Shown here: one piece after another, positions 13,801 through 54,947 of the stretch
How the letters are laid out: the number at the start of each line of letters is the position of its first letter
Numbering within the stretch: position 1 is the stretch's first letter
Origin: Candidatus Dormiibacterota bacterium
GTDB taxonomy: Bacteria; Eisenbacteria; RBG-16-71-46; SZUA-252
Assembly: GCA_035635575.1 (NCBI GenBank)
Contig: DASQAV010000131.1
Location: forward strand, 9,860-73,859
DNA length: 64,000 nucleotides
Reading direction: 5' to 3'
The notes under the pieces: generated by a model
Databases searched by the model: none
Told to the model about the DNA's origin: nothing
The model's input: only the letters and a program-made list of their open reading frames with translations
Position numbers and translations under genes: made by a program

Positions 13801-13925
13801 ATCTGGAGTTCAAGAGCGAGGGATTTGCGTTCTTGCAGAAGCCCTACACGATGGAAGATTTCGCGCGCAGAATCGCGGACCTGCTCCGCGGCGCCTCGCT
13901 TGGAGATCGCGGCCGCAAGGTCTAG
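10872..13925 (+). CDS. Hybrid sensor histidine kinase (GAF-like N-terminus, about 4 PAS domains, HisKA, HATPase_c, C-terminal REC)
   Basis: H-box [25 protein letters not shown]1 and G2 boxes ([10 protein letters not shown]…DQGCGM…GKGTGLGLS). Receiver domain ([11 protein letters not shown]…[13 protein letters not shown]…LQKPY). Several PAS cores. Start is uncertain: first in-frame GTG after the GAF-gene stop is at 10872, but the frame is open from 10740. Confidence 0.75.
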
Positions 13926-25032: not shown

Positions 25033-25757
25033 GCGGGCTCCGCGACAGGCTCATCGTCGCGCTCGACCGCCCGGATCTCGCGTCGGCCCTGGCTCAGGTG
25101 GACCGCATCGGCGACTCCGTGGCATGGTATAAGGTGGGGCTGGAGCTGTTCTATGCCGCGGGGCGGCCGGCCGTCCAGGCGCTTGCCGACCGGGGCAAGC
25201 GGGTGTTTCTGGACCTCAAGCTTCACGACATTCCCGCGACGGTGGGAAAGGCGGTCGGTGCCCTGGAAGGGCTTCCGATCTCGCTCCTGAACGTGCACGC
25301 GGCCGGGGGGCCCGCGATGCTCCGCTCCGCGGTGGAAGCCGCTCGAGGCCTCACGGCGCGGCCGCGCGTTCTCGGGGTCACGATGCTCACGAGCCTCGAC
25401 GGCTCCGAGCTTCCGGCGCTCTGGAATCCCACGACCGATCTGGTATCGAAGGTGCTGGCGCTGGCGCGGGTGTGCCGCGAGGCGGGCTGCGACGGCGTGA
25501 TCGCCTCGCCCCAGGAGCTCGTGGCCTTGCGCCGCGAGCACCAGCCCCCCTTCGTGATCCTGACCCCCGGCATCCGGGGGCCGGGGGATCCGTCGCAGGA
25601 TCAGAAGCGGACGCTCTCGCTTCCCGAGGCCATCGGGCGCGGAGCCGACTTCATCGTGGTCGGAAGGCCCATCTCGGAGGCGAGCGATCCCCGGGCCGTC
25701 GTGGCCGCGTACGAAGCATCCCTGGCGTCGAGCCCTACGGAAAGGACCCAAGCATGA
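25029..25757 (+). CDS. pyrF: Orotidine-5'-phosphate decarboxylase
   Basis: Motifs LIVALD, FLDLKLHDIP(A)TV and the catalytic D/K/D/K array. No canonical ATG/GTG near the expected N-terminus, so the start is uncertain (CTG at about 25029 or 25038, overlapping the pyrD stop). The stop overlaps the gmd ATG (ATGA). Confidence 0.7.
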   Translation: MSGLRDRLIVALDRPDLASALAQVDRIGDSVAWYKVGLELFYAAGRPAVQALADRGKRVFLDLKLHDIPATVGKAVGALEGLPISLLNVHAAGGPAMLRSAVEAARGLTARPRVLGVTMLTSLDGSELPALWNPTTDLVSKVLALARVCREAGCDGVIASPQELVALRREHQPPFVILTPGIRGPGDPSQDQKRTLSLPEAIGRGADFIVVGRPISEASDPRAVVAAYEASLASSPTERTQA

Positions 25758-26707
25758 AGGTTCTGGTCACGGGGATCACCGGCTTCGCCGGCAGCCACCT
25801 CGTGGACTACATGCTGGCGGAGAAGAAGGGCGTCGAGATCGTCGGGATCCAGCGCTGGAGAAGCCGCACCGAGAACGTGGAGCACTTCCTGGACAAGGTG
25901 CGCATGGTGGAATGCGACCTGCGCGACGCCTCCTCGGTGCGCGACGTGCTCGACGCGGAACGCCCGGAATGGATCTTCCATCTCGCCGCCCAGAGCTTCG
26001 TGCCGACCTCCTGGACCGCGCCCACCGAATCCCTGATCACCAACATCATCGGGCAGCTCAACATCTTCGAGGCCGTGAAGAAGCTCCACATCCTGCCGCG
26101 CATCCAGCTCGCCTGCTCCAGCGAGGAGTACGGCATGGTGTACGAGAACGAGCTTCCCATCCAGGAGACCAATCCGCTCCGCCCGCTTTCCCCCTACGCG
26201 GTGAGCAAGGTCGGGCAGGACATGCTGGGCTACCAGTACTTCATGAGCTTCAAGCTGCCGGTCATCCGCACGCGCGGGTTCAACCACGAAGGGCCGCGGC
26301 GCGGGCCCGTGTTCGTCTGCTCCGATTTCGCGAAGCAGATCGCGGACATCGAGAAGGGCCGGCGGCCGCCCGTGATCCGCGTGGGAAATCTGGACGCGCG
26401 CCGGGATTTTACCGACGTGCGCGACATCGTGCGCGCCTACTGGCTGGCGCTCGAGAAGGGCGAGCCGGGCGAGGTGTACAACCTCTGCTCGGGGCGCGCG
26501 TGGAAGATCCGCGAGATGCTCGACCTGCTCCTGAGCATGACGAAGGTGAAGGTGAAGGTGGAGCAGGATCCGGCCCGCATGCGTCCCTCCGACGTGCCGG
26601 TCCTGCTCGGGGACGCCGCCAAGTTCACGAAGGTGACCGGGTGGAAGCCCACGATCCCCTTCGAGACCACGCTGCGCGATCTTCTGGAGTACTGGAGGGC
26701 CCGCTAA
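25754..26707 (+). CDS. gmd: GDP-mannose 4,6-dehydratase (short-chain dehydrogenase/reductase, extended family)
   Basis: N-terminal Rossmann VLVTGITGFAGSHL. SPYAVSK Y-x3-K catalytic motif. Gmd-specific FNHEGPRRG block and GNLDARRDFTDVRD. 317 aa. Confidence 0.75.
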   Translation: MKVLVTGITGFAGSHLVDYMLAEKKGVEIVGIQRWRSRTENVEHFLDKVRMVECDLRDASSVRDVLDAERPEWIFHLAAQSFVPTSWTAPTESLITNIIGQLNIFEAVKKLHILPRIQLACSSEEYGMVYENELPIQETNPLRPLSPYAVSKVGQDMLGYQYFMSFKLPVIRTRGFNHEGPRRGPVFVCSDFAKQIADIEKGRRPPVIRVGNLDARRDFTDVRDIVRAYWLALEKGEPGEVYNLCSGRAWKIREMLDLLLSMTKVKVKVEQDPARMRPSDVPVLLGDAAKFTKVTGWKPTIPFETTLRDLLEYWRAR

Positions 26708-26711
26708 GGCC

Positions 26712-27686
26712 TTGCGCACGCTCATCACCGGCGTCGCGGGCTTCGTGGGACGCCACCTCGCGCACGAGCTGGCGAAGGATCCCGACGAGGAGCTGAACGG
26801 CACCGATCACATCGAGCTCGGCGGGTCCGAGGCGGACGAGGTGCTCCGCTGCCATCTCAAGAGTCACCGGCCGCTGGACGTCACGATTTTCGAGCAGGTC
26901 CGCGGGTGCATGCTGGAATCGAAGCCCGACCGGATCGTCCATCTCGCCGCCCAGGCCTCCGGCTCCGAGTCGCTCCGGAGACCCGCCGAGACCTACAAGG
27001 TGAACGCGATCGGCGCGCTCAACGTCCTCGAGGCGGCGCGGCTGGAATTGCCGGACGCCACGATTCTTCTCGTGGGCTCGGCGGACGTCTACGGCTCGGG
27101 CGTGCCGGGTCAGAAGCTCCGGGAAGACACTCCGTTCAAGCCGATCAACGCCTACGCGCTGAGCAAGGTGGCGCAGGACTCCCTGGGGGAGCTCTACGCC
27201 AAGAGCTACGGCCTTCGCGTCATCCGCACCCGCACCTTCAGCCACACCGGGCCGGGCCAGAACCCGCGCTTCGCGCTGGCGGGCTGGGCCGACCAGCTGG
27301 CGCGCATCCACGCCGGGCTGGTCGCGGCGGAGATCAAGGTGGGGAATCTGGAGGGGGTGCGCGACTACGGGGACGTGCGGGACGTCGTCCGCGCGTACCG
27401 GCTCCTTCTCAAGCAGGGGGAGCCGGCCCAAGCCTATAATGTCTGCACCGGTCACGGGCACATCATGCGCCATCTGCTCGACAGCCTCTGCGCGATCGCG
27501 GGATTCAAGCCCACGATCGTCCAGGATCCGGTGCGGGTGCGCTCGCGCGACTCGGATTTTCTCGTCGGCGATCCGGGGAAGATCCAGGCCACGACCGGCT
27601 GGGTTCCCGAGATTCCGATCGAGCGCACGCTGGAGGATCTCTATCGGGACGCGCGCGAGCGGGTGCGGCGCGAGACCGGGAGCTGA
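26712..27686 (+). CDS. rmd: GDP-4-dehydro-6-deoxy-D-mannose reductase-like SDR (Rmd-like)
   Basis: TTG start. LITGVAGFVGRHL, NAYALSK, FSHTGPGQ and C-terminal YNVCTG…IVQDP…TGW are the features that distinguish Rmd from Gmd. 324 aa. Confidence 0.65.
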   Translation: MRTLITGVAGFVGRHLAHELAKDPDEELNGTDHIELGGSEADEVLRCHLKSHRPLDVTIFEQVRGCMLESKPDRIVHLAAQASGSESLRRPAETYKVNAIGALNVLEAARLELPDATILLVGSADVYGSGVPGQKLREDTPFKPINAYALSKVAQDSLGELYAKSYGLRVIRTRTFSHTGPGQNPRFALAGWADQLARIHAGLVAAEIKVGNLEGVRDYGDVRDVVRAYRLLLKQGEPAQAYNVCTGHGHIMRHLLDSLCAIAGFKPTIVQDPVRVRSRDSDFLVGDPGKIQATTGWVPEIPIERTLEDLYRDARERVRRETGS

Positions 27687-27694
27687 GGGGCGGG

Positions 27695-28996
27695 TTGCGC
27701 ATCGTCGTCGTGGGAACCGGATACGTGGGGCTGGTCAGCGGGGCCGGGCTGGCCGATTTCGGGAACGAGGTGCTCTGCGTGGACGTCGACCGGAGCAAGA
27801 TCGACCTCCTCGAGCGCGGCGAGATTCCCTTCTACGAGCCCGGACTGAAAGACCTGGTCGCGCGGAACGTGCGCGAGCGGCGTCTCCGCTTCAGCACGTC
27901 GCTGGAGCAGGCGACGCGCTGGGGCGAGGTCATCTTCATCTGCGTTGGGACGCCCCCGCGGCGGAACGGAACCGCCGACATGCGGGCGGTCTACGACGTG
28001 GCGAAGAACGTGGCGCAGGCCATGCCCGGCTACCGGCTCATCGTGCAGAAGAGCACCGTGCCCGTGGGAACCGGGGACAAAGTGCGCGCCCTCTTGAAGA
28101 AGCACCGGAGACGCGGCGTGCCCTTCGACGTGGCCAGCAATCCCGAGTTTCTCCGCGAGGGCTCGGCGGTTGAAAATTTCATGCGCCCGGACCGGATCGT
28201 CATCGGCGCGAACACGGAGAAGGCGCGGAAGCTCCTGAAGAGCATCTACGCGCCCCTGTACCTGCTCGAGACCCCGACCCTGCTCACGGGCGTGCGCACG
28301 GCGGAGCTCTTGAAATACGCGGCCAACGCGTTTCTCGCGACGAAGATCTCCTTCGTGAACGAGATGGCCAATCTGGCCGAGGCGGTCGGAGCGGACATCC
28401 AGGACGTCGCGAAGGGGATGGGGCTGGACCGGCGCATCGGGCCCAAGTTCCTGCATCCGGGTCCGGGATTCGGCGGCTCCTGCCTGCCCAAGGACGCGGT
28501 GGCCCTGCGCGCGTTCGCCAAGGCGGCGGGCGTTCCGCTGCGGATCGTGGCCGCGGCCACCGAGGCGAACAAGGCGCAGCGCGGCGTGGCGATCCAGAAG
28601 ACGATGCAGGCACTCCGGGGACGCGGAACGCGCACGGCCGCGGTCCTGGGCCTGAGCTACAAGCCGGACACGGACGATCTTCGCGAGGCGCCCTCGCTCG
28701 AGATCATCCGGGCCCTGCTCAAGAAAGGCATCCGGGTGCGCGCATACGATCCCGCCGTGAGGCGCGGCAACCCCGAGGTTCCGGCAGGGGTGGTTTTCGG
28801 CGCCAATGCCTACGACGCCGCGAAGGGAGCCGACGTGCTGGTGCTGGTGACGGAATGGAACGAGTTCCGGAAGCTGGACCTCGTGAAGATTCGCCGGGCG
28901 ATGCGCCGGCGCGCGATCGTCGATCTTCGAAACGTCTACGATCCCGAGACGGTGCGAAAGCTCGGGTTCACGTACACCTCGGTGGGGAGGTCGTGA
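27695..28996 (+). CDS. ugd: UDP-glucose 6-dehydrogenase
   Basis: TTG start. N-terminal VVVGTGYVGLV, catalytic Cys motif GFGGSCLPKD, and the UDP-binding domain LGLSYKPDTDDLREAP. 433 aa. Confidence 0.85.
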   Translation: MRIVVVGTGYVGLVSGAGLADFGNEVLCVDVDRSKIDLLERGEIPFYEPGLKDLVARNVRERRLRFSTSLEQATRWGEVIFICVGTPPRRNGTADMRAVYDVAKNVAQAMPGYRLIVQKSTVPVGTGDKVRALLKKHRRRGVPFDVASNPEFLREGSAVENFMRPDRIVIGANTEKARKLLKSIYAPLYLLETPTLLTGVRTAELLKYAANAFLATKISFVNEMANLAEAVGADIQDVAKGMGLDRRIGPKFLHPGPGFGGSCLPKDAVALRAFAKAAGVPLRIVAAATEANKAQRGVAIQKTMQALRGRGTRTAAVLGLSYKPDTDDLREAPSLEIIRALLKKGIRVRAYDPAVRRGNPEVPAGVVFGANAYDAAKGADVLVLVTEWNEFRKLDLVKIRRAMRRRAIVDLRNVYDPETVRKLGFTYTSVGRS

Positions 28997-29457
28997 TGAA
29001 GTTGATCCAGGGCGTCCATGTCAAACCTCTAAAAGTCATAGCGGACGAGCGCGGCTACCTCATGGAGATGATGCGAAACGACGATCCCTTCTTCCAGCGC
29101 TTCGGCCAGTCCTACGTCTCGGTGGCCTATCCGGGCGTGGTGAAGGGGTGGCACTACCACAAGGTGCAGACCGATCACTTCGTGATCGTGAAGGGAATGA
29201 TGAAGGTGGTGCTCTACGATTCGCGGGAAGGCTCCCCCACGAAGGGGCTCATCAACGAGTTCTTCATGGGAGAGCGGAATCCCATCCTCGTCACCATCCC
29301 GCCGGGCGTGGTGCACGGCATGAAGGGCATCGGGACCGAGCCCGCCATGCTCGTGAACGTGCCGACCGAGACCTACAAGTACGACCAGCCCGACGAGTTC
29401 CGCATCGAGCCGCACTCGAAGGACATTCCGTACGACTGGGAGCGGAAGGATGGCTGA
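28996..29457 (+). CDS. Cupin-fold sugar-nucleotide epimerase/isomerase (dTDP-4-dehydrorhamnose 3,5-epimerase RmlC-like)
   Basis: ATG overlaps the ugd stop (GTGATGA). A 153-aa small cupin with conserved K-G-W-H-Y-H and His pair, typical of RmlC / WbcA-like 3,5-epimerases or 3,4-ketoisomerases. Confidence 0.55.
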   Translation: MKLIQGVHVKPLKVIADERGYLMEMMRNDDPFFQRFGQSYVSVAYPGVVKGWHYHKVQTDHFVIVKGMMKVVLYDSREGSPTKGLINEFFMGERNPILVTIPPGVVHGMKGIGTEPAMLVNVPTETYKYDQPDEFRIEPHSKDIPYDWERKDG

Positions 29458-30481
29458 GGCTCCGGACCTGACCCGCGCCCGATTCCTCGTCACGGGAGGA
29501 GCCGGGTTCATCGGGTCCAATTTCGTGCGGATGGTGCGGAAGCGCTTTCCCGATTCCCGCGTCACCGTGCTGGACAAGCTGACCTACGCGGGGAATCTGG
29601 CGAATCTGGAATCGATCGCGGGCGATGCGGGCTACCGGTTCGTGAAGGGAGACATCTGCGACCCGAAGTCGGTCGCGGAGGCGATGGAAGGGTGCGATCT
29701 CGTCGTGAATTTCGCCGCCGAGACCCACGTGGACCGCTCCATCGAGCGGGCGCACGAGTTCGTGCTCACCGATACGGTCGGGGTGTACGTGCTCCTCGAG
29801 GAAGCCCGCCGCGCCGGAGTGCGCCGGTTCGTGCAGGTCTCGACGGACGAGGTGTACGGGGAGATCCTGGGAGACGCGGCCACGGAGGAATCCCCGCTCC
29901 TCGCGCGAAATCCCTACGCCGCGTCGAAGATCGGAGGGGACCGGCTGGCGTACTCCTACTACGCGACCTTTGGCCTCCCGACCATCGTCACGCGATGCAG
30001 CAACAACTACGGGCCCTACCAGCACCCCGAGAAGCTGATCCCGCTCTTCGTGACGAACGCATTACAAGATATTCCCGTGCCCGTCTACGGAAGCGGGAAG
30101 AACACCCGGGACTGGATCCACGTGGATGATCACTGCGCCGCGATGCTCGCCCTCTTGCAGACGAAGGACGTGGAGGGAGAGACCTTCAACATCGGCGCGG
30201 GGAACGAGAAGTCGGTCCTCGAGATCACGTCCCTGATCCTGGATCGGTTGAAGAAGCCGAAGGGTTTGGTCAAGCACGTCACCGACCGGCCCGGGCACGA
30301 CCGGCGCTATGCCCTGGACGTGAGCAAGCTCCAGAAGCGGACGGGATTCACGCCGGGGATGAATTTCGAGCGCGGCATGAGCGCCACGATCGACTGGTAC
30401 GCCCAGAACCGCGCCTGGTGGGAATCGGTCCGTTCCGGAGAGTACCGCCAGTACTACGAGCGCATGTACGGAGCCCGCTAG
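29450..30481 (+). CDS. rmlB: dTDP-glucose 4,6-dehydratase
   Basis: VTGGAGFIGSNFV Rossmann motif. Catalytic TDEVYG and Y-x3-K (YAASK). RmlB-typical C-terminal region (…HDRRYALD…). 343 aa. Confidence 0.85.
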   Translation: MAEAPDLTRARFLVTGGAGFIGSNFVRMVRKRFPDSRVTVLDKLTYAGNLANLESIAGDAGYRFVKGDICDPKSVAEAMEGCDLVVNFAAETHVDRSIERAHEFVLTDTVGVYVLLEEARRAGVRRFVQVSTDEVYGEILGDAATEESPLLARNPYAASKIGGDRLAYSYYATFGLPTIVTRCSNNYGPYQHPEKLIPLFVTNALQDIPVPVYGSGKNTRDWIHVDDHCAAMLALLQTKDVEGETFNIGAGNEKSVLEITSLILDRLKKPKGLVKHVTDRPGHDRRYALDVSKLQKRTGFTPGMNFERGMSATIDWYAQNRAWWESVRSGEYRQYYERMYGAR

Positions 30482-30490
30482 GGAATTCCG

Positions 30491-31960: not shown

Positions 31961-32106
31961 CAGGCTCCCCGGGGAAACCTATCCTTGATTCGCATCGCCG
32001 CGCCTGCCGGGGTCCGCGGGACGATCGCGCACCCACGCTGGATCAGGCCGATCGGGGAACGCCTCCCATTCCCGGGCTTCGGATCCAGCCCTTTACAGGA
32101 CAACAT

Positions 32107-38366: not shown

Positions 38367-38499
38367 TGGCAAGAGACCGCTGGGTGTGCCATGATCCTGG
38401 CCAGCGGCGTCCCCCCCCAACGTCGGCATCGTCGCATTTCCAGAGACAATCCAGCGCGCGGTCCAACCTCTTCGGTCGTAGGCACGGAGGTCAGCGGGA

Positions 38500-39627: not shown

Positions 39628-39664
39628 GGCTCGGCTAGGATCGACCGATTCCGGGAGGGTACCG

Positions 39665-42895: not shown

Positions 42896-42896
42896 C

Positions 42897-43979: not shown

Positions 43980-45541
43980 CCGGCCGCGCGCCTCCGGGGA
44001 TACGGCAGAAGGACCCGCACTTCTTCAAGCTTTACGTAGCGCGCCGCGGTCAGGACGCCCAGGACGACGAGGGCCGACACGCCGCCCAGGGCACCCGCCG
44101 CGATCCAGGCCACGAGCCCGGCCGAGGCGGGCATCACGCGATCGAGAGCCAGGGCACAGAGCCATCCCGCCGCCACCGCGAGCGTGGGGACGAGGTGCGG
44201 CGTGAGGAACACCTCGCGCCTCGTCCAGCCGAAGAGGGAACGGAAGCGCGCGAGAAAATAGACCGAGCCCGCCGCGTTGGAGACGATCCAGGCCACGAGC
44301 GCGCCCCGGAGCCCCCAGCGCGGGATCAACACGAGGCTGAGCAAGAGATGCGAGCCCGCCACCACGCCCGCGAACCGAGCCTCGACGTCGGGCCGCCCGA
44401 TTCCGCGCACGAGGGTCGTTCCCATTCCGGTGGTCAGGGCGGCCGCGAATCCGATCGCGAGCGCCCGGAGCACCATAGCGGAATCCTCGTGCCCCGGCCC
44501 GAGCCACGCGATGAAGACGCGGCTGCCCGCGCCGAGCACCACCGCGAGCACGATCGCTCCCGCGCTCAGCACGAAGCGCGCGCCCCTGCGATAGAGCTCG
44601 CGCAGGCGCTCCCGATCCTGGGTGGCGTGGAACGCGGCCGCCGTGGGGAGCACGGCGAGGAGGAGAAACTGGGGAAAGACGCTCGCGGAGATGGCGACCC
44701 TGGCCCCCAGCTCGTAGGGGGTGATCGCGGCCAGGGCGATGAACGCCCCGAGCAGGAACTTGTCGATCTGCTGATGAAGCGCCGAGAAGATCCCCGCGAG
44801 CTGCATCGGGCCGCCGAAGGCGAGCGCCTCCCGAACGTGGGGCCGCGCGCGCGGCCACGAGCCAAAGCGGAACTCGCGCACCTTCATGCGCAGAAGAAGC
44901 GCCGCGCAGAGCATCCCCAGAAGCCAGGACCCCATCATGCCCAGCACCAGGCCCCGGAGCCCCAGCCCGAAGCGAAGCGCCAGCAAGATTCCGAGCCCCT
45001 GGAAGATCGTGATCGCCACCGCGACCGAATTCGCGAGGTCGAACCGGCCGTACGCCTGGAGCACGGACATGACGACGTTCACGACTCCCGCCAGGGCGAA
45101 CGCGGCGCCCCCGGCGATCAGCGCGAATCGGGCGACGCCGGCCTGGGCGGGCGGAACGTGCAGGAGGCGGAGCGCGAAATCGCCCAGGAGAAACAGGACC
45201 GCGATCCACACCAGGCCGAGCGCGAAGAAGCCCAGGATCCCGAGCGTCGCGAAGGCGCCGGCCTCCTCGTGCGCGTCCCGGGCGCGCGCCCCCGCGACGT
45301 GGCGAAGGGTTCCCTGCACCAGTCCCAGATCGAAGGCGGAGAGGTATCCCGTGAGCGCGAAGAAGAGCGACCAGATGGCGTACCCCTCCGTCCCCACGGC
45401 ACGGAGGATGCGCGGCGTGAAGACGAGCCAGAGGAGGACGCTGAGCACCCGCCCCGACGCGGCGTGGAGCGTGTTCGTCGCCAGACGCCGGCCGGTGCCG
45501 CCGCGGCTTCCGATCTCGATCCCGGGCTCTACCGGCTCCAC
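43976..45541 (-). CDS. Second polysaccharide flippase (Wzx/MOP superfamily)
   Basis: About 12-14 TM helices. Start placed at in-frame GTG (45541) just after the upstream GT4 stop, rather than the tracked ATG at 45607, which would overlap that gene by 62 nt. Confidence 0.6.
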   Translation of the reverse strand: MEPVEPGIEIGSRGGTGRRLATNTLHAASGRVLSVLLWLVFTPRILRAVGTEGYAIWSLFFALTGYLSAFDLGLVQGTLRHVAGARARDAHEEAGAFATLGILGFFALGLVWIAVLFLLGDFALRLLHVPPAQAGVARFALIAGGAAFALAGVVNVVMSVLQAYGRFDLANSVAVAITIFQGLGILLALRFGLGLRGLVLGMMGSWLLGMLCAALLLRMKVREFRFGSWPRARPHVREALAFGGPMQLAGIFSALHQQIDKFLLGAFIALAAITPYELGARVAISASVFPQFLLLAVLPTAAAFHATQDRERLRELYRRGARFVLSAGAIVLAVVLGAGSRVFIAWLGPGHEDSAMVLRALAIGFAAALTTGMGTTLVRGIGRPDVEARFAGVVAGSHLLLSLVLIPRWGLRGALVAWIVSNAAGSVYFLARFRSLFGWTRREVFLTPHLVPTLAVAAGWLCALALDRVMPASAGLVAWIAAGALGGVSALVVLGVLTAARYVKLEEVRVLLPYPRRRAAG

Positions 45542-45545
45542 CGGC

Positions 45546-46697
45546 TCAACGCGTTCCAAGGGAGATCGCCTCCTGATAGACGGCAAGGGTAGCGCGTGCC
45601 GTCTCATGCCAGGTGAACCGTGCTGCCTGAACCGGCCCCGCCGCGCGGAGCCGGCGCGCCACCGCTTCGTCCGTGACCGCGCGGCGCATCGCCTCGGCCA
45701 GCGCCCGCACGTCGTCCGGCGCCACCGTCAGCGCCGCGTCCCCGGCCACTTCGGGAAGGCTCGACGTGTTCGAGGTGACGACCGGGGTGCCGCACGCCAT
45801 CGCTTCGAGCACCGGCAGCCCGAATCCTTCGAAGAGGGAGGGATACACCACGGCCGCCGCCTTCCGATAGAGCGCCGGCAGATCGCGGTCGAGGACGCGG
45901 CCGACGCGAAGGACGTGACCCTCCAGGCCCTCGGAGGCGAGGCGGTCGAGTACCGGCCGATAGCCCCATCCCAATCCCCCCGCGAGCACGAGCCGGTGCG
46001 GAATCCCCCGTCCGCGGAGCAGGGCGAACGCGTCGAGGAGGCGCAGGAGATTCTTCCGCGGCTCGAGCGTCCCGAGGAACAACAAGAAAGGCGGGCGGAT
46101 TCCGTACCGTTCCAGCGCCGCCGCGTCGTCGGGACCCTCTCGTGGAGTGAAACGCTCCTCGTCGTAGCCGTCGGGCACGACGCGCATCCGGGCTGGATGG
46201 ATCCCGGTCCGGAGGGCCAGCTCCTCCGCCGTGGCGCGCGAGGGAACGATCACCAGCTTCGCCCGCTTGCAAGCGCGGGGCACCATCTGCCGCAGATGGA
46301 AGCGGCTGAGTTTCGAATGGACCTCGGGATGGCTCATGAAGGTGATGTCCTGCACGGTGACCACGCTGGGCAGGCCTCCCACGTGCGGCACGATCGAGTT
46401 CGACGCATGGATCAGGTCCGCCTCCGGCAGCATGCCGCGGAGCGAGATGCCGGTAACCTGAGAGGAGAGCGAGAGCGCGCGCCAGGCGCGGTCCCGCCAC
46501 GGGAGATTCTTCCGCCGGAGCCCCAGAAGCCAGGGCGGCGTCTCGATCTCGATCGGGCCCATCGTCGCATACGGAAGGAGCACGGGCGGCTGGGGCAGCT
46601 CGAGGAGCCCGTGGCAGAGCTCCCGCACGTAGCGCGCGTTTCCCGCTCCCTCGTGAAGTCCCGCCGAGACGTCGATCGCGACGCGCGGGGCGCTCAC
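45546..46697 (-). CDS. Glycosyltransferase family 4
   Basis: GTG start overlaps the upstream GT2 stop (GTGA). C-terminal EGFGLPVLEAMACGTPVVTS signature. The longer tracked ORF (to 47171) runs through the GT2 gene in another frame. Confidence 0.7.
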   Translation of the reverse strand: MSAPRVAIDVSAGLHEGAGNARYVRELCHGLLELPQPPVLLPYATMGPIEIETPPWLLGLRRKNLPWRDRAWRALSLSSQVTGISLRGMLPEADLIHASNSIVPHVGGLPSVVTVQDITFMSHPEVHSKLSRFHLRQMVPRACKRAKLVIVPSRATAEELALRTGIHPARMRVVPDGYDEERFTPREGPDDAAALERYGIRPPFLLFLGTLEPRKNLLRLLDAFALLRGRGIPHRLVLAGGLGWGYRPVLDRLASEGLEGHVLRVGRVLDRDLPALYRKAAAVVYPSLFEGFGLPVLEAMACGTPVVTSNTSSLPEVAGDAALTVAPDDVRALAEAMRRAVTDEAVARRLRAAGPVQAARFTWHETARATLAVYQEAISLGTR

Positions 46698-47614
46698 CGT
46701 GCGAGAAGCCAGGTGAGCTCGTCCCGGTGGAGCCGCAGCGAAGCCATCGCGGCGCGGCTCCCGCCGCGGATCCAGGCAGGGATGGCGCGCCGGACCGCCT
46801 TGAGCAGCGTGAGCAAGAGGGAGAGTCCCGTCACCGCGGCAGCCGCGAATCCGGGGCGGTGCTTTCTCATGAGCAGGACGTAGGCGCGCTGGATCATCAG
46901 GCTCGTGCGCTCGCGCGTCTTCCTCCAGCTCCCGCCCCATCCGTGCTCGATGACCGCCTCGGGGAGATACACCACCCGCCAGCCCGCGTCGTGCAGGCGC
47001 CAGCAGAGGTCCACGTCCTCGCCGAAGAAGAAGAAATCCTCGTCGAGGAGTCCCACCTGGGCCAGCGCTTCCGCGCGGAGGATCAGCGCCGCCCCGCAGA
47101 GCTCGTCCACGTCGCAGGTCAGGCCGTAATCGCGCCGCTCGAATCGATCCGCCGTCGCGCGGCGCACCCATCCCGGAACCGGCGTGATGGCGACCATGGA
47201 CGCAAGGAGCGTGGGGAAGGCGCGGCCCGTGGGCTGGAGCGTTCCGTCGAAGTGGCGAAGCTGCGGCCCGCAGGCGCCCACGCGCGGATGCGCGTCCAGG
47301 TAGGCGACGAGACGCCGCAGGGCGCCCTCCGGAACGCGCGTGTCGGAGTTGAGGAGCATGCGGTAGCGCCCGTGGGCGAAGGTCAGCCCCTGGTTCGAAG
47401 CGCGGGCAAATCCGAGGTTCTCCTGGTTCTGGATGAGGCGCACTCCGGGAAACTCGGCCGCGACCATCGAGGCGCTCCCGTCCTGGGAGTCGTTATCGAC
47501 CACGAACACCTCGGTGGAGACGCCCGCCTCGCCTCGCAGGGATTGGAGGCAATCCGAGAGGAGGTCGCGCGTGTTCCAGCTGACGATGACGATGCTGACG
47601 TCGGGAAGGCTCAT
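46694..47614 (-). CDS. Glycosyltransferase family 2
   Basis: N-terminal GT-A signature VSIVIVSWNTRDLL…FVVDNDSQDGS with DxD-like region …FGEDVDLCWRL. Start taken at MSLPDVS (47614) rather than the tracked 47713. Confidence 0.7.
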   Translation of the reverse strand: MSLPDVSIVIVSWNTRDLLSDCLQSLRGEAGVSTEVFVVDNDSQDGSASMVAAEFPGVRLIQNQENLGFARASNQGLTFAHGRYRMLLNSDTRVPEGALRRLVAYLDAHPRVGACGPQLRHFDGTLQPTGRAFPTLLASMVAITPVPGWVRRATADRFERRDYGLTCDVDELCGAALILRAEALAQVGLLDEDFFFFGEDVDLCWRLHDAGWRVVYLPEAVIEHGWGGSWRKTRERTSLMIQRAYVLLMRKHRPGFAAAAVTGLSLLLTLLKAVRRAIPAWIRGGSRAAMASLRLHRDELTWLLAR

Positions 47615-47711
47615 GGGTTCGGAAGGCGGTCTCGCGCCGGGCGGGATTGTATCAATAACCGGTGATCTGGGGTAAGCTCCAGCCGCTCGCGCGCTTCGCG
47701 CGGCGAACCCC

Positions 47712-49112
47712 ATGATCGGAAAGAATCGTCAACTCTTCGCCACCGGCGCGTTTCTCCTCGACGGTGTCCTGATCGCGGCATCCTGGCTCGCCGCCTACGG
47801 GCTGCGATTCCACGGGCTGGGTATCGCCACTCCCCTCGGCGTGCCGCCCCTTTCCCTCTATCTCTGGTTCGGGGCCGTGCTCACGCCGGTCGCGCTCCTC
47901 ATCCTGAGATCGCTCCACATCTATCGCTCCACGCGCACCGCGCGGCTCTCCCAGGAGATGTTCGCGCTCGTCCAGGGAGTCGTCGCGATCACGGCCCTCG
48001 CGGGCCTCGGCTCCTACTTCTCACGCGGAGAGCTGAGCCGCTCCGTGCTGCTCCTCTTTGCCGTGATCGCATCCCTGGCGCTCTGCGTCACGCACGCTCT
48101 GGGAAGGTTCACGCTGCGCGCGATGCGCCGGAACCGCCGCAATCTCCGGCACGTCCTCATCGTGGGCACGGGGGAGCTGGCCGCCGAGCTCGAGCGAAAG
48201 ATGACCTCGGAGGGGGATTTTGGATTCGCGGTGGAAGGCATGGTCGCGGCCCGCGCGGAGGAGACCGGCGGGACGATCGGGTCCACGAAGGTCCTGGGCT
48301 CGGTTGCCGACCTGCCGGAGCTGGTGGAGCGGAGCGGGGCGGAGCTGGTCTACCTCGCGCTGAACCGGAACGAGCACGAGGCGGAGCTGGAGGCGCTGGA
48401 GCGTCTGAACGACTCGACCGCCGCGGTCCGGCTGGTTCCGGATCTCGCACGCACCTTCACGCTGAACGCGAGCGTCGAGGATTTCGCCGGGACGCCGGTG
48501 ATCCTCGTGACCGAGAGCCCGGGCCAGGGATGGAACGCGGTGCTCAAGCGGGTCTTCGATCTCACCTTCGCGGCGATCGGGCTCATCCTCCTTTCGCCGG
48601 TGCTTCTCTTGATCGCGATCGCGGTTCGCCTGGACTCGCCCGGTCCCGCGCTCTACGGGCAGGAGCGCGTGGGGCTCAGCGGCCAGCGCTTCAAGATGTA
48701 CAAGTTCCGAACCATGCGCCAGGACGCGGAGCCGGAGGGGAACGCGGTGTGGGCCCGGCCGGGGGATCCGCGCAGGACGCGGCTGGGGTCGCTCCTACGG
48801 CGCACCTCGCTCGATGAGCTGCCTCAGCTCTGGAACGTGCTCGTGGGGCACATGAGCCTCGTGGGTCCGCGCCCCGAGCGTCCCCACTTCGTGAAGCAGT
48901 TTCGCGCCCAGATCCCGCGCTACATGCTCCGCCACCACGTGAAGGCCGGCATCACCGGATGGGCGCAGGTGAACGGGCTTCGCGGCGACACCCCGCTCGA
49001 TCGGCGGATCGAGTACGATCTCTACTACATCCAGAACTGGTCGATGGGATTCGACGTGAAGATCCTTCTTCTCACCGTGCTCCGCGTGTTTCGCGACCAG
49101 AGCGCCCATTAG
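47712..49112 (+). CDS. Undecaprenyl-phosphate hexose-1-phosphate transferase (WcaJ/WbaP-type bacterial sugar transferase)
   Basis: Four to five N-terminal TM helices and a central linker. C-terminal Bac_transf domain with KRVFDL…, PGPALY, KFRTM, DELPQL and GxMSLVGPRP motifs. Confidence 0.85.
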   Translation: MIGKNRQLFATGAFLLDGVLIAASWLAAYGLRFHGLGIATPLGVPPLSLYLWFGAVLTPVALLILRSLHIYRSTRTARLSQEMFALVQGVVAITALAGLGSYFSRGELSRSVLLLFAVIASLALCVTHALGRFTLRAMRRNRRNLRHVLIVGTGELAAELERKMTSEGDFGFAVEGMVAARAEETGGTIGSTKVLGSVADLPELVERSGAELVYLALNRNEHEAELEALERLNDSTAAVRLVPDLARTFTLNASVEDFAGTPVILVTESPGQGWNAVLKRVFDLTFAAIGLILLSPVLLLIAIAVRLDSPGPALYGQERVGLSGQRFKMYKFRTMRQDAEPEGNAVWARPGDPRRTRLGSLLRRTSLDELPQLWNVLVGHMSLVGPRPERPHFVKQFRAQIPRYMLRHHVKAGITGWAQVNGLRGDTPLDRRIEYDLYYIQNWSMGFDVKILLLTVLRVFRDQSAH

Positions 49113-49113
49113 C

Positions 49114-50121
49114 GTGCTCGAAGTCGCTCCCCTCGCCTTCTTCTCGGCCCTGGCGTTGACGCCCCTCGCGCGGCGCCTCGCGCGCGCGACCGGCTACGTG
49201 GATGATCCCGCCGCGCGCAAGGCGCACGCGCAATCCACGCCCCTCCTCGGGGGAGCCGCCGTCGCGGCGGCGCTCGTGATCGCGCCGCTCCTCGCGCGAG
49301 CGATGGGCGCCTCCCCGATCGCGGCGCCCACCACGGGGGTCGTGGTGGGGGCGCTCATCGCGCTCGCGCTGGGATTGATCGACGACCGCCGGCCACTGGG
49401 TCCCAAGTCAAAGCTCCTGGGGCAGCTCTTGGCGGGGGCCTGCCTCGTCTACTGGGGGACCTCGGTGCCGGAGCTCCGCCTGAACCCCATCCTGGGAATC
49501 CTCGCGGTGGTCGCGGTCGCGGCGTTGCTCAACGCGATGAACTTCCTGGACAACATGGACGGCATCCTTGGCGCGCTCGTCCCGGTGACCGCGTGCGGCT
49601 TCGCGGCGCTCGCCCTGATCCACGGCACGCCCGTGGACCTTGGCCTCGCGTTCGGGCTGATCGGCGCGTGCGCCGGATTCCTTGTCTATAACGCGCCCCC
49701 CGCGCGGATCTTTCTTGGCGACGCGGGCAGCCATCTCCTCGGCTTCAGCCTCGCGGCGCTCGCGCTGCAGTCGCTCCAGGGATCCTTCACGCTGCCGCAT
49801 CTCGCCGCGGTCCTTCTCATCCTTGCGTATCCGATTTTTGACGCCACGTTCGTGGTGTGGGACCGCGTTGTAGGACGCCGTCCATTCTACGTAGGCGGTA
49901 CGGACCACACGACACATCGGCTCGGGAAGCGCTTCGGGAAGTGGGGAACCATCGCAATCGTGTCACTTGCGTCCTCTCTGAACGCATGGCTCGGCGTATG
50001 GACCTGGGGGCGTTCCGACGCCTTGTCAATCGTCTGCGTTTTATGCGTTTCTGCCCTTGGATACGCCCTTTTTGGCACCGTGCTGAGACACATCAGTCCC
50101 ACCACCCAGTTCGTCACTTGA
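49114..50121 (+). CDS. Polyprenyl-phosphate N-acetylhexosamine-1-phosphate transferase (WecA/MraY-family)
   Basis: GTG start 2 nt after the previous stop. Multi-TM protein with the family's NFLDNMDG and FLGDAGS motifs. Confidence 0.8.
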   Translation: MLEVAPLAFFSALALTPLARRLARATGYVDDPAARKAHAQSTPLLGGAAVAAALVIAPLLARAMGASPIAAPTTGVVVGALIALALGLIDDRRPLGPKSKLLGQLLAGACLVYWGTSVPELRLNPILGILAVVAVAALLNAMNFLDNMDGILGALVPVTACGFAALALIHGTPVDLGLAFGLIGACAGFLVYNAPPARIFLGDAGSHLLGFSLAALALQSLQGSFTLPHLAAVLLILAYPIFDATFVVWDRVVGRRPFYVGGTDHTTHRLGKRFGKWGTIAIVSLASSLNAWLGVWTWGRSDALSIVCVLCVSALGYALFGTVLRHISPTTQFVT

Positions 50122-50146
50122 CAAACTCGTTTTACACTTGTATTCT
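50118..50146 (+). promoter_or_regulatory. Candidate sigma70 promoter (-35 TTGACA, 17 nt, -10 TATTCT) upstream of the sigma54 activator gene
   Basis: Read directly: ttgaca (50118-50123), spacer aactcgttttacacttg (17 nt), tattct (50141-50146). It lies in an 87-bp intergenic segment that is unusually AT-rich for this genome. Confidence 0.4.
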
Positions 50147-50208
50147 GCCTTGACGCAGGGAGTAGGGCGCAGCCTTGCAGGCCGGAACAAAACAAGGGGT
50201 GGGGAACA

Positions 50209-54946: not shown

Positions 54947-54947
54947 C

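What the first reader, a model, noticed from the sequence alone, without database searches (positions are those of the whole stretch)
25754..50121. Composite Wzx/Wzy-type polysaccharide locus with duplicated core machinery, suggesting two glycan pathways
The locus supplies GDP-D-rhamnose (gmd+rmd), UDP-GlcA (ugd) and dTDP-6-deoxyhexose steps (rmlB plus an RmlC-like cupin, but no rmlA/rmlD here). It also carries a further SDR (UDP-GlcA decarboxylase-like), six GT4, one GT2 and a methyltransferase. Uniquely, it has two Wzx flippases (30491, 43976), two Wzy/ligase-like proteins (34781, 40749) and two different priming transferases (WcaJ-type 47712, WecA-type 49114), with a single Wza-like exporter and Wzz-like PCP. 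This looks like two repeat-unit assembly lines sharing one export apparatus, or an O-antigen plus capsule/EPS hybrid. GC content appears native (uniformly high), arguing against recent acquisition.
Basis: partly seen in the sequence, partly recalled or inferred. Interest (0 to 1): 0.55.

Follow-up and report, generated by a model that had tools for sequence, protein, structure and literature searches.

The report
Two-line surface-glycan locus of Eisenbacteria
This is the main surface-sugar gene cluster of an uncultured soil bacterium (Candidatus Eisenbacteria): its paired flippases, Wzy-like enzymes and priming enzymes are real and intact, but they are different, specialised family members set in a conserved frame with two swappable cassettes, so it is an informative but not fundamentally new kind of polysaccharide locus.

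Summary
The gene inventory holds. 21 intact genes tile 25754-50121: two MOP/Wzx flippases, two Wzy_C proteins, a WcaJ-type and a WecA-type priming transferase, one OPX and one kinase-less PCP. Corrections: five GT4, not six; no canonical Gmd (two Rmd-like SDRs); the pairs are not duplicates (no or only motif-level similarity); the layout is not unique.

The same architecture recurs in more than 15 Candidatus Eisenbacteria MAG contigs. Comparison splits the locus in two. A conserved framework (g1-g5 sugar genes, Wzx1, UXS-like SDR, GT4 g13, Wzy_C#2 g14, both priming transferases, σ54 activator) is 76-94% identical at orthologue level. Two cassettes exist as deeply diverged allele families: VR1 (OPX-PCP-Wzy_C#1-GT4-GT4) and VR2 (MT-GT4-Wzx2-GT4-GT2). 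They assort independently (A/A, A/B, B/A, B/B, C/A all seen).

Wzy_C#1 is hypervariable (15 homologues in 5.8 billion proteins) and is probably the polymerase. Wzy_C#2 is conserved (>340 homologues), matches the solved WaaL ligase in sequence and fold, and is probably a ligase-type transferase.

Best reading: two undecaprenyl-linked assembly lines, one polymerised and exported, one flipped and transferred en bloc. The wiring of flippases and priming enzymes is inferred, not shown. All genes have dN/dS of 0.05-0.33. Interest is moderate.

The parts
25754..26707 (+). g1, Rmd/Gmd-like GDP-sugar SDR (framework). Its start overlaps the pyrF stop by 4 nt.
   Evidence: PF16363 272 bits. Gmd equivalog not met, 164 < 415. 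Best PDB hit is Rmd 2PK3, 291 bits. Carries an SSEEYG motif. 94% identical in L019 and L021.
26712..27686 (+). g2, second Rmd-like SDR (framework).
   Evidence: PF16363 191 bits. Best PDB hit is Rmd 2PK3, 202 bits. 82% identical in L019 and L021.
27695..28996 (+). g3, UDP-glucose 6-dehydrogenase (framework).
   Evidence: Three UDPG_MGDP_dh domains. TIGR03026 458 > 190. 90% identical in L019.
28996..29457 (+). g4, RmlC/CapF-C-like cupin, probable NDP-4-keto-6-deoxyhexose epimerase or isomerase (framework).
   Evidence: PF00908 and PF14667. RmlC equivalog not met, 44 < 156. Best PDB hit is 3EJK 'dTDP sugar isomerase'.
29450..30481 (+). g5, dTDP-glucose 4,6-dehydratase RmlB (framework).
   Evidence: TIGR01181 413 > 365. 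STDEVYG and YxxxK motifs.
30491..31960 (+). g6, Wzx1: conserved WzxE-like MOP flippase (framework).
   Evidence: PF13440 and PF01943 pass. 12 TM segments. Hits WzxE structure 9G95 at E 3e-14 over residues 16-404. More than 200 homologues at 59-94% identity. Identity follows genome relatedness, not VR1 family.
31957..31985 (+). σ70-like promoter match (TTGACA-17-TATCCT) in the 146-nt gap before the OPX gene.
   Evidence: 10 of 12 positions match; 2 sites found in 20 kb against 0.8 expected. A consensus match only.
32107..33708 (+). g7, OPX (Poly_export + 4 SLBB), part of cassette VR1.
   Evidence: TTG start with a signal peptide ending ASA|QW, and a hydrophobic C-terminal helix. 86% identical in same-type relatives but 35-39% in other-type relatives.
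33705..34784 (+). g8, kinase-less PCP (Wzz + GNVR, 2 TM), part of VR1.
   Evidence: Its periplasmic part matches Wzc structures (E 2.5e-9) better than FepE/Wzz. Allele families A, B and C.
34781..36118 (+). g9, Wzy_C#1: hypervariable, probable Wzy polymerase, part of VR1.
   Evidence: PF04932 52 bits. 13 TM segments. Only 15 homologues in 5.8e9 proteins. No PDB sequence hit. WaaL-like fold, TM-score 0.56-0.61. Always co-inherited with OPX and PCP of the same family.
36115..37209 (+). g10, GT4, part of VR1.
   Evidence: Present only with VR1 family A.
37206..38366 (+). g11, GT4, part of VR1.
   Evidence: Present only with VR1 family A.
38500..39627 (+). g12, UDP-glucuronate decarboxylase (UXS/ArnA-C)-like SDR (framework).
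   Evidence: Best PDB hit is human UXS1, 206 bits. NF008872 147 < 294. 75-94% identical in relatives.
39665..40771 (+). g13, conserved GT4 overlapping g14 (framework).
   Evidence: 80-92% identical in 15 loci and always directly upstream of g14.
40749..42041 (+). g14, Wzy_C#2: conserved WaaL-like enzyme, probable ligase-type transferase (framework).
   Evidence: PF04932 87 bits. More than 340 homologues at 55-89% identity. Hits WaaL 7TPG at E 2.8e-8 with Arg253 and His297 aligned. AF2 pLDDT 85.7; best fold match 7TPG, TM-score 0.65-0.69. Identity is independent of VR2 family.
41990..42925 (-). g15, SAM methyltransferase, part of cassette VR2 (the longest ORF extends to 43000).
   Evidence: 69-91% identical in L002, L006 and L014 only.
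42897..43979 (-). g16, GT4, part of VR2.
43976..45559 (-). g17, Wzx2: variable MOP flippase, part of VR2 (the longest ORF extends to 45607).
   Evidence: PF01943 37.7 > 28.2. 12 TM segments. hhalign against the Wzx1 family is colinear over 430 columns, E 1.4e-4. 65-89% identical in L002, L006 and L014, absent elsewhere. dN/dS 0.17-0.33.
45546..46697 (-). g18, GT4, part of VR2.
46694..47614 (-). g19, GT2, part of VR2 (the longest ORF extends to 47713). It diverges from WcaJ across about 98 nt.
   Evidence: Orthologues are 306 aa.
47712..49112 (+). g20, WcaJ-type polyprenyl-phosphate hexose-1-P transferase (framework).
   Evidence: TIGR03023 480 > 411. 82-94% identical in relatives, 61-69% in distant ones.
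49114..50121 (+). g21, WecA/WbpL-type polyprenyl-phosphate HexNAc-1-P transferase (framework).
   Evidence: PF00953 107 bits. WecA model 111 < 326. Hits MraY structures. 73-86% identical in relatives.
50175..51890 (+). GAF-σ54 enhancer-binding protein, the conserved right-hand neighbour of the locus (probable start 50259; σ70-like promoter at 50118-50146).
   Evidence: 89-95% identical and adjacent to the WecA-type gene in L001, L002, L006 and L011.

Best explanation
The region is the lineage-typical surface-glycan super-locus of a Candidatus Eisenbacteria bacterium.

Framework and cassettes:
- The conserved framework supplies nucleotide sugars (g1-g5, g12), two priming transferases of different classes (WcaJ-type, WecA-type), one conserved WzxE-like flippase (Wzx1), a GT4 (g13) and a conserved WaaL-like Wzy_C enzyme (g14).
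- Two exchangeable cassettes plug into this framework.

Preferred wiring:
- Line 1: an undecaprenyl-PP-linked repeat unit is extended by the VR1 glycosyltransferases (g10, g11) and flipped, probably by the adjacent Wzx1. It is polymerised by the cassette's own hypervariable Wzy (g9) and moved out through the cassette's kinase-less PCP (g8) and OPX (g7). This is a capsule/EPS-type polymer.
- Line 2: a second undecaprenyl-PP-linked oligosaccharide is built by the VR2 enzymes (GT2 g19, GT4 g18 and g16, methyltransferase g15) and flipped by the cassette's own Wzx2 (g17). VR2 has no polymerase, so the glycan is handed to conserved g14, which transfers it en bloc to a conserved acceptor (lipid A-core, or proteins). 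This resembles single-unit O-antigen or outer-core pathways.

Shown:
- Family memberships and intactness of all genes.
- The split into framework and cassettes.
- Independent assortment of VR1 and VR2.
- The contrast in conservation between the two Wzy_C proteins and between the two flippases.

Inferred:
- Polymerase versus ligase roles.
- Which flippase and which priming enzyme serve which line.
- The acceptor of g14.
- The sugars.
For: 1. Inventory and intactness. dN/dS is 0.05-0.33 for every gene against its orthologues.
2. Framework versus cassettes. In the genome of L001/L019, pyrD, pyrF and the EBP are 80-90% identical. There g1-g5 are 82-94%, Wzx1 78, g12 76, g13 82, g14 78, WcaJ 86 and WecA-type 77. 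In contrast OPX is 39, PCP 37, g9 has no hit, g10/g11 are 30-33 and g15-g19 have no hit or only 29-42% paralogue-level matches.
3. VR1 (OPX+PCP+Wzy_C#1+GTs) is inherited as a block in families A, B and C. VR2 GTs travel with their own flippase. The combinations A/A (window, L006), A/B (L011, L023), B/A (L014), B/B (L001, L007, L012, L013, L024-L026) and C/A (L002) all occur. So the polymerase and the variable flippase are not co-inherited.
4. g9 has 15 homologues in 5.8e9 proteins, against >340 for g14 and >200 for Wzx1. Hypervariability is the hallmark of Wzy (review PMC12004945).
5. g14 hits the only solved WaaL (7TPG) by sequence, E 2.8e-8, with the catalytic-region Arg and His aligned. g9 does not. 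The g14 model's best fold match is 7TPG.
6. g14 identity does not track VR2 family and Wzx1 identity does not track VR1 family. This is expected for enzymes with generic interfaces.
7. In a distant clade, a g14-like gene heads a co-directional string: GT4-MT-GT2-flippase (not a Wzx1 orthologue)-MT-GT4-g13-like.
8. The OPX has a signal peptide, and a BamD-like gene lies nearby, so the cell is diderm.
Against: 1. A conserved flippase serving strain-variable repeat units is atypical. Wzx proteins usually prefer their cognate unit (PMC6436433).
2. Pairing by evolutionary rate gives the opposite wiring: conserved Wzx1 with conserved g14, and variable Wzx2 with variable Wzy.
3. In L020 there is no glycosyltransferase between Wzy_C#1 and g14, so VR1 is not always self-contained.
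4. Fold comparison does not separate ligase from polymerase. g9 also matches WaaL best, and both carry the H[NSQ]x9Gxx[GTY]-type motif.
5. No lipid A, core or Lpt genes, and no BY-kinase, lie in the window. The GT9 genes seen in relatives belong to a variable cassette and are absent here.
6. Adjacency hints on which priming enzyme serves which line conflict.
7. The sample is about 15 MAG contigs, some of them fragmentary.
Confidence: 0.45

Rival explanations
1. Common-antigen model. The conserved parts form a complete, conserved Wzx/Wzy line: one priming enzyme, GT4 g13, WzxE-like Wzx1, and g14 acting as a polymerase. This would make an ECA-like 'common' polymer. All variable parts (VR1 and VR2 GTs, Wzx2, Wzy g9, PCP, OPX) together make one strain-specific capsule or O-antigen-like polymer. 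It is the reader's 'two repeat-unit assembly lines', with or without a shared exporter.
For: - Evolutionary rates pair naturally: conserved flippase with conserved Wzy_C and conserved GT, and variable flippase with variable Wzy_C, PCP and OPX.
- Wzx1's best NCBIfam and PDB matches are the ECA flippase WzxE.
- Polymerases of conserved polymers, such as WzyE, are themselves conserved (PMC10030265).
- L020 lacks GTs in VR1.
- Five GTs plus a priming enzyme is a normal size for one repeat unit.
Against: - VR1 (with Wzy) and VR2 (with Wzx2) assort independently, with all four A/B combinations seen. That is unexpected if both act on the same repeat unit.
- g14 is the Wzy_C that resembles solved WaaL in sequence; g9 is not.
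- Only one conserved GT (g13) would be available for the conserved polymer, although at least three kinds of conserved sugar-nucleotide genes are present.
Confidence: 0.25
2. Classical O-antigen/capsule model. One variable polymer is made by Wzx2, Wzy g9 and the PCP. It is then both exported through the OPX and ligated to lipid A-core by conserved WaaL g14, as in E. coli group 1/4 capsules with K-LPS. Wzx1 and one of the priming enzymes serve another conserved glycan whose last step is encoded elsewhere.
For: - Variable wzx and wzy plus a conserved waaL is the textbook pattern.
- g14 is WaaL-like.
- The PCP is Wzc-like without a kinase, and an OPX is present.
Against: - It has the same independent-assortment problem as the common-antigen model.
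- It leaves a conserved flippase, embedded between the conserved sugar genes and the OPX gene, without a terminal enzyme in a locus that otherwise looks complete.
- No LPS core genes are visible in the window.
Confidence: 0.2
3. Redundancy or decay. One member of each pair is a pseudogene, an unrelated transporter, or a functionally redundant spare, so only one glycan is made.
For: - Wzx2 has only weak family scores (PF01943 37.7 bits) and no PDB sequence hit.
- The closest relative, L006, has a frameshifted WecA-type gene.
Against: - All copies are full length, with the expected 12 or so TM segments in the flippases and 10 to 13 in the Wzy_C proteins, and pass the Pfam gathering scores.
- Orthologues are kept in several genomes with dN/dS 0.15-0.33.
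- The pairs are too divergent to be redundant copies.
- Both priming enzymes and both Wzy_C proteins are conserved across the clade.
Confidence: 0.03

Closest known systems
E. coli K-12 chromosomal cps(wca)-rfb super-region (colanic acid locus next to the O-antigen locus, with wzz nearby); from established knowledge
   Same: Two Wzx/Wzy-dependent lines are encoded side by side. The region holds two flippases, two polymerase-family proteins, a WcaJ priming enzyme, one OPX, shared nucleotide-sugar genes (ugd, rml, gmd-type) and a variable O-antigen part.
   Different: In E. coli the colanic-acid machinery (Wza/Wzc/WzxC/WcaD) is conserved and has a BY-kinase, while WecA and WaaL lie elsewhere. 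Here the OPX/PCP/Wzy block is the hypervariable part, one flippase is conserved, both priming enzymes and the WaaL-like gene are inside the locus, and the two lines are interleaved rather than adjacent.
Single-unit, Wzy-less Und-PP pathways ligated by WaaL (Yersinia enterocolitica O:3 outer-core cluster; Bordetella band-A trisaccharide wlb locus); from memory, not checked here
   Same: A cassette of glycosyltransferases plus a Wzx flippase without a polymerase. Its product is transferred en bloc by a conserved WaaL-family enzyme. This is the proposed role of VR2 plus g14.
   Different: The acceptor here is unknown, no core genes are visible, and the cassette is strain-variable and methylates its glycan.
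Acinetobacter baumannii K locus plus PglL/TfpO O-oligosaccharyltransferases (PMC3628348, PMC3369928)
   Same: A variable Wzy and a conserved, relaxed-specificity Wzy_C-family transferase coexist. A Wza/Wzc-type export block and variable central GT/wzx/wzy genes lie between conserved flanks.
   Different: Acinetobacter uses one priming enzyme and one flippase for both fates, and its wza-wzb-wzc genes are conserved. Here there are two of each and OPX/PCP are variable.
Myxococcus xanthus EPS/BPS/MASC Wzx/Wzy pathways (PMC7310880, PMC9603273, PMC12004946)
   Same: Several Wzx/Wzy lines exist in one non-enteric diderm, with kinase-less PCPs, OPX proteins with variable numbers of SLBB domains, Wzy_C-type polymerases, and a σ54 activator associated with an EPS locus.
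   Different: Each Myxococcus pathway has its own OPX, PCP and β-barrel partner in separate loci. Here a single OPX/PCP pair is present and no β-barrel partner is seen.
Enterobacterial common antigen (wec cluster: WecA, WzxE, WzyE, WzzE; PMC11706664, PMC10030265)
   Same: A conserved flippase (Wzx1 is most similar to WzxE) and a WecA-type priming enzyme are retained across a whole clade alongside a variable glycan.
   Different: Wzx1 scores 99 bits against a WzxE cutoff of 325. There is no WzyE-family protein, and no evidence for an ECA-like trisaccharide.

Membership tests
Wzx/Wzy-dependent polysaccharide pathway | Polyprenyl-phosphate sugar-1-P priming transferase | tested here: met
   g20 passes TIGR03023 (480 > 411 bits) and g21 passes PF00953 (107 > 27).
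Wzx/Wzy-dependent polysaccharide pathway | MOP-superfamily Wzx flippase | tested here: met
   g6 scores PF01943 48.9 and PF13440 49.9 and hits the WzxE structure at E 3e-14. g17 scores PF01943 37.7 > 28.2. Both have 12 TM segments.
Wzx/Wzy-dependent polysaccharide pathway | Wzy polymerase (polytopic, hypervariable, encoded with its cognate GTs) | tested here: inconclusive
   g9 is a Wzy_C protein with 13 TM segments, hypervariable (15 homologues) and co-inherited with PCP, OPX and GTs. Polymerase activity cannot be read from sequence, and the fold equals that of WaaL.
Wzx/Wzy-dependent polysaccharide pathway | PCP and OPX for chain-length control and outer-membrane export | tested here: met
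   g8 has Wzz + GNVR and g7 has Poly_export + 4 SLBB.
PCP-2a (Wzc) / BY-kinase-coupled export | C-terminal or separately encoded BY-kinase | tested here: not met
   g8 ends after TM2 (359 aa). No kinase-type protein is found among the 53 window genes.
WaaL O-antigen ligase (for g14) | Wzy_C domain with a periplasmic-loop Arg and the H[NSQ]x9Gxx[GTY]-type His motif | tested here: met
   PF04932 87 bits. R253 and H297 align with the WaaL 7TPG catalytic region, and both are invariant in 36 homologues. The feature is not exclusive, because g9 has the motif too.
WaaL O-antigen ligase (for g14) | Sequence and fold similarity to solved WaaL | tested here: met
   phmmer E 2.8e-8 against 7TPG. Foldseek E 3.4e-9, TM-score 0.65-0.69. 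This does not discriminate against Wzy.
WaaL O-antigen ligase (for g14) | Lipid A-core acceptor present, and ligation activity | not testable with these tools
   No lpx, waa or lpt genes lie in the window, and whole genomes could not be retrieved. Biochemistry or genetics is needed.
GDP-D-rhamnose pathway (Gmd + Rmd) | Canonical GDP-mannose 4,6-dehydratase | tested here: not met
   TIGR01472 scores 164 bits (g1) and 89 bits (g2) against a cutoff of 415.
GDP-D-rhamnose pathway (Gmd + Rmd) | Rmd-type GDP-4-keto-6-deoxyhexose reductase | tested here: inconclusive
   g1 and g2 both best-match Rmd 2PK3 (291 and 202 bits). g1 also matches GDP-heptose 4,6-dehydratase 7US5 (217 bits). Substrate was not determined, and no manC lies in the window.
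dTDP-L-rhamnose pathway (RmlABCD) | All four enzymes present | tested here: not met
   RmlB is met (413 > 365). The RmlC-like cupin is below cutoff (44 < 156). No RmlA or RmlD is in the window.
WecA (UDP-GlcNAc:Und-P GlcNAc-1-P transferase) for g21 | Equivalog-level match | tested here: not met
   TIGR02380 scores 111 bits against a cutoff of 326. Superfamily membership (PF00953, MraY structures) is met. The sugar specificity is unknown.
Class 1 OPX (Wza-like) for g7 | C-terminal outer-membrane-spanning Wza_C helix (definition in PMC9603273) | tested here: inconclusive
   There is no Pfam Wza_C hit, but the last 25 or so residues (FIKTVGNVTGYLAQVATVYLVIHQ) form a hydrophobic segment. No structure model was made.
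Enterobacterial common antigen system | WzxE equivalog, a WzyE-family polymerase and WzzE | tested here: not met
   WzxE model NF011679 scores 99.5 bits against a cutoff of 325. No WzyE family hit was found.

The most novel reading that the evidence does not exclude
The locus is a 'two-socket' glycan platform kept across Candidatus Eisenbacteria.

- Socket 1: a conserved WzxE-like flippase and a priming enzyme accept interchangeable OPX-PCP-Wzy-GT cassettes. These exist as ancient allele families only 35-39% identical, maintained side by side in closely related genomes, presumably by phage or predator pressure.
- Socket 2: a conserved WaaL-like transferase and a second priming enzyme accept interchangeable, polymerase-less flippase+GT cassettes.

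This would reverse the usual rule of a conserved exporter with a variable flippase. It would also mean that the exporter itself is a diversifying, serotype-determining component.
Probability: 0.3. Interest if true: 0.55.

Novelty: new variant of a known kind. Interest (0 to 1): 0.38.

Why it matters
Nothing is published on the cell surface of Candidatus Eisenbacteria, an uncultured soil phylum; literature searches found no description of its glycan loci. This locus gives a first, testable picture of that surface. It predicts a diderm cell carrying an exported, strain-variable polymer and a second variable glycan attached by a conserved WaaL-like enzyme.

The comparative pattern is a natural experiment on substrate specificity. 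It combines a conserved flippase and ligase, hypervariable OPX/PCP/Wzy alleles, and two cassettes that reassort independently. Which components tolerate glycan change, and which must be swapped together?

The locus also offers practical markers for MAG surveys: conserved g13-g14, WcaJ and Wzx1 as anchors, and the VR1 and VR2 allele families as 'serotype' markers.

It does not reveal a new biochemical mechanism, because every protein belongs to a known family.

Tried and rejected
- Exact-protein look-up of WcaJ in public assemblies: not on record. The source was later traced through 100%-identical Wzx1 and g14 cluster members on JGI contigs.
- σ54 promoters: a TGGCAC-N5-TTGC search with up to 2 mismatches gave 37 hits against 41 expected, none in the intergenic gaps. 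There is no evidence that the adjacent σ54 activator drives the locus.
- Structure prediction to separate ligase from polymerase: both Wzy_C models match WaaL 7TPG best, then the SEDS proteins. This is not discriminating.
- The H[NSQ]x9Gxx[GTY] motif as a WaaL marker: it is present in both proteins and so is not discriminating.
- GT9 (heptosyltransferase family) next to g14 in L004 and L020 as evidence for an LPS-core context: GT9 turned out to belong to the variable family-B/D cassettes and is absent from the window. The evidence is weak.
- WecA-type/g14 adjacency in the distant clade as evidence for wiring: the genes between them are KH-domain, rimM and trmD housekeeping genes, so the adjacency is not an operon link.
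- An early reading that the sugar genes g1-g5 are variable: this was an artefact of the ±10 kb locus range. They are conserved directly after pyrF.
- Rfam and tRNA scans for island signatures: nothing found.
- Unannotated 12-TM proteins in relatives (L002 512 aa, L017 427 aa, L018 419 aa) gave no Pfam hit. The flippase or polymerase counts in those genomes remain uncertain.

Full report
**Gene map.** The DNA is 63-72% G+C throughout, so ORF lists are dominated by shadows. Genes were called from third-position GC and checked with a log-odds caller.

- 21 genes tile 25754-50121 with almost no spacers.
- 14 are on the + strand (g1-g14, 25754-42041), 5 on the - strand (g15-g19, 41990-47614) and 2 on the + strand (g20-g21, 47712-50121).
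- Upstream lies a pyrR-pyrB-pyrC-(BamD-like TPR)-pyrK-pyrD-pyrF operon. The pyrF stop overlaps the g1 start.
- Downstream lies a GAF-σ54 enhancer-binding protein.

- Two MOP/Wzx flippases: 30491 and 43976(-).
- Two Wzy_C proteins: 34781 and 40749.
- A WcaJ-type priming transferase that passes its equivalog cutoff: 47712.
- A WecA/MraY-superfamily priming transferase: 49114.
- One OPX (Poly_export + 4 SLBB, signal peptide, start at TTG 32107).
- One PCP without a kinase.
- Ugd, RmlB, an RmlC-like cupin, a UXS-like SDR, one GT2 and one methyltransferase.

- There are five GT4, not six.
- Neither g1 nor g2 reaches the Gmd equivalog (164 and 89 bits against 415). Both are closest to the solved Rmd 2PK3, so a GDP-6-deoxyhexose branch is plausible but the dehydratase step is unassigned.
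- No rmlA, rmlD, manC, BY-kinase or GT9 gene occurs anywhere in the 64-kb window.

**The pairs are not duplicates, and none is decayed.**

- Wzx1 and Wzx2 share no BLASTP similarity. Profile-profile comparison gives only a weak colinear match (E 1.4e-4, probability 53%).
- The two Wzy_C proteins share only the C-terminal catalytic half.
- All are full length, with 10 to 13 predicted TM segments (12 in each flippase).
- Every locus gene shows dN/dS of 0.05-0.33 against orthologues in up to five relatives.

**Organism and relatives.** Homologues of g14 and Wzx1 come from MAGs named Candidatus Eisenbacteria. Identical copies lie on JGI metagenome contigs of up to 71.7 kb. I fetched 26 loci around g14, Wzx1 or g9 homologues.

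The same order recurs: pyrF | g1-g5 | Wzx1 | ... OPX-PCP-Wzy_C#1 ... | GT4(g13)-Wzy_C#2(g14) | variable genes | WcaJ | (variable genes) | WecA-type | σ54 activator. The arrangement is therefore lineage-typical, not unique.

**Framework and cassettes.** tblastn of all window proteins against all loci separates two classes. In the genome of L001/L019, pyrD, pyrF and the activator are 80-90% identical to the window.

- Framework genes are at the same level: g1-g5 82-94%, Wzx1 78, g12 76, g13 82, g14 78, WcaJ 86, WecA-type 77.
- OPX and PCP drop to 39 and 37%. g9 finds nothing. g10 and g11 are 30-33%. g15-g19 have no orthologue there: g15 and g17 find nothing, and the GT genes give only 29-42% paralogue-level matches.

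Across the loci, these variable genes fall into allele families:

- VR1 (OPX+PCP+Wzy_C#1 with their GTs), family A: window, L006, L021, L011, L022, L023.
- VR1 family B: L001/L019, L007, L012-L014, L024-L026, with the L004/L020 block a distant relative of family B at 50-66% identity.
- VR1 family C: L002.
- VR2 (GTs plus a flippase), family A, with Wzx2: window, L006, L002, L014.
- VR2 family B, with another flippase placed between WcaJ and the WecA-type gene: L001, L010-L012 and L024-L026. L007, L009, L013 and L023 carry the family-B GTs, but their contigs end before the flippase position.

Within a family, identities are at framework level. Between families they are 35-39% or undetectable. 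All combinations occur: A/A, A/B (L011, L023), B/A (L014), B/B and C/A. So the cassette with the polymerase and the cassette with the variable flippase are exchanged independently. Uniform GC and the absence of tRNA and Rfam features fit exchange within the lineage rather than foreign acquisition.

**The two Wzy_C proteins differ sharply in behaviour.**

- g9 has 15 homologues in 5.8 billion proteins, no hit in the PDB, and is always inherited with its PCP, OPX and GTs. This is the behaviour of a Wzy polymerase, whose extreme diversity is well known (PMC12004945).
- g14 has more than 340 homologues at 55-89% identity. It hits the only solved WaaL (7TPG) at E 2.8e-8 with Arg253 and His297 in the aligned catalytic region; these residues are invariant in 36 homologues.
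- g14 gives a confident model (pLDDT 85.7) whose best PDB match is WaaL (TM-score 0.65-0.69). Its identity does not follow the VR2 family.

The caveat is that the g9 model (pLDDT 73.5) also matches WaaL best (TM-score 0.56-0.61) and both carry the His motif. Fold and motif therefore do not separate ligase from polymerase. The assignment rests on conservation pattern, sequence proximity to WaaL and context.

**Other components.**

- Wzx1 is conserved (59-94% identity in more than 200 homologues) and is closest to the ECA flippase WzxE.
- Wzx2 is cassette-bound.
- The periplasmic part of the PCP resembles Wzc more than Wzz/FepE, but it has no kinase. This is as in Myxococcus pathways (PMC12004946).
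- The OPX has no Pfam Wza_C hit but does have a hydrophobic C-terminal helix, so class 1 versus class 3 (PMC9603273) is open.
- σ70-like promoter matches fall exactly in two of the few intergenic gaps, before the OPX gene and before the activator gene.
- No σ54 -24/-12 signal was found.

**Model.** The most economical reading of the cassette structure is two undecaprenyl-linked lines.

- VR1 lacks only a priming enzyme and a flippase. The framework supplies both, and Wzx1 is immediately upstream. Its product would be polymerised by g9 and exported by the PCP and OPX.
- VR2 lacks only a priming enzyme and a terminal enzyme. The framework supplies both, and g14 is immediately adjacent. Having no polymerase, its oligosaccharide would be transferred en bloc by g14 to lipid A-core or to proteins.
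- In a distant clade, a g14-like gene heads a co-directional string of GTs, methyltransferases and a non-Wzx1 flippase. This supports the g14-variable-flippase link.

Weak points of the model:

- A conserved flippase for variable units is unusual (PMC6436433).
- Rate-based pairing suggests the alternative wiring: Wzx1 with g14 as a conserved common-antigen line, and Wzx2 with g9 as one variable polymer.
- L020 has no GT in VR1.
- The assignment of the two priming enzymes is unresolved.

I give the preferred model 0.45, the common-antigen wiring 0.25, a classical O-antigen/capsule wiring with an orphan Wzx1 line 0.20, and redundancy or decay 0.03.

**Comparison with known systems.** The closest analogues are:

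- the adjacent colanic-acid and O-antigen loci of E. coli;
- Wzy-less single-unit pathways ligated by WaaL (Yersinia O:3 outer core, Bordetella band A; from memory);
- the Acinetobacter K locus plus PglL (PMC3628348, PMC3369928);
- the multiple Wzx/Wzy pathways of Myxococcus (PMC7310880).

All proteins belong to known families. The differences here are:

- the two lines are interleaved in one frame;
- the locus is fused to the pyr operon;
- the hypervariable block includes the exporter and co-polymerase while one flippase is conserved;
- the two cassettes assort independently.

Literature searches found nothing on Eisenbacteria glycan loci.

**Verdict.** This is a new variant of a known kind, of moderate interest.

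Noticed in passing
window 25754-25757 (pyrF stop / g1 start); L019, L020, L021, L022: The first glycan gene overlaps the pyrF stop codon by 4 nt (ATGA). The same pyrF|g1 overlap is kept in four relatives, so the nucleotide-sugar genes appear to be co-transcribed with, and translationally coupled to, the pyrR-controlled pyrimidine operon.
   Followed up: partly
window 21510-23267: A 585-aa TPR protein with a YfiO/BamD-like domain sits inside the pyr operon between pyrC and pyrK. The same gene is there in L019 and L021, and in L020 it appears fused to pyrK. It indicates a diderm envelope.
   Followed up: partly
window 32107-34784 versus L001, L019, L024-L026: The OPX and PCP exist as allele families only 35-39% identical between genomes whose housekeeping genes are 80-90% identical. 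The exporter itself seems to be a diversifying, cassette-borne component.
   Followed up: yes
window 52941-56470: A DUF6754 protein and three ORFs without any Pfam or NCBIfam hit follow the σ54 activator and a methyltransferase. A DUF6754 gene also follows the activator directly in L011. Function unknown.
   Followed up: no
window 62442-63941: A 499-aa processive-type GT2 (Glyco_tranf_2_3 / Glyco_transf_21) lies at the window edge, preceded by two ORFs with no family hit (60020-62466). It may be a separate synthase-dependent polysaccharide system.
   Followed up: no
window 1157-3059: A CDP-alcohol phosphatidyltransferase lies next to a myo-inositol-1-phosphate synthase, suggesting inositol-phospholipid (or related) synthesis.
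   Followed up: no
window 6527-8379: An AIR-carboxylase-like (LarB-type) gene lies next to a nickel-insertion protein (LarC family), suggesting synthesis of the nickel-pincer cofactor.
   Followed up: no
L006:18266-19305: The closest relative (VBOR01000028, same cassette types) has a frameshift in its WecA-type gene. This is either an assembly error or a genuine loss of one priming enzyme.
   Followed up: partly
L020:6206-9983: On the 3.1-Mb contig the g2-g5 orthologues are split into fragments. This looks like long-read indel errors, so gene content there should be read with caution.
   Followed up: no
L002:1746-3284; L017:6132-7415; L018:1372-2631: Polytopic (11-12 TM) proteins of 419-512 aa without any Pfam hit sit inside relatives' glycan loci. 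They may be unrecognised flippases or polymerases.
   Followed up: partly
window 10872-13925 and 56495-59896: Hybrid PAS histidine kinase/response-regulator genes flank the region on both sides. No link to the glycan locus was tested.
   Followed up: no
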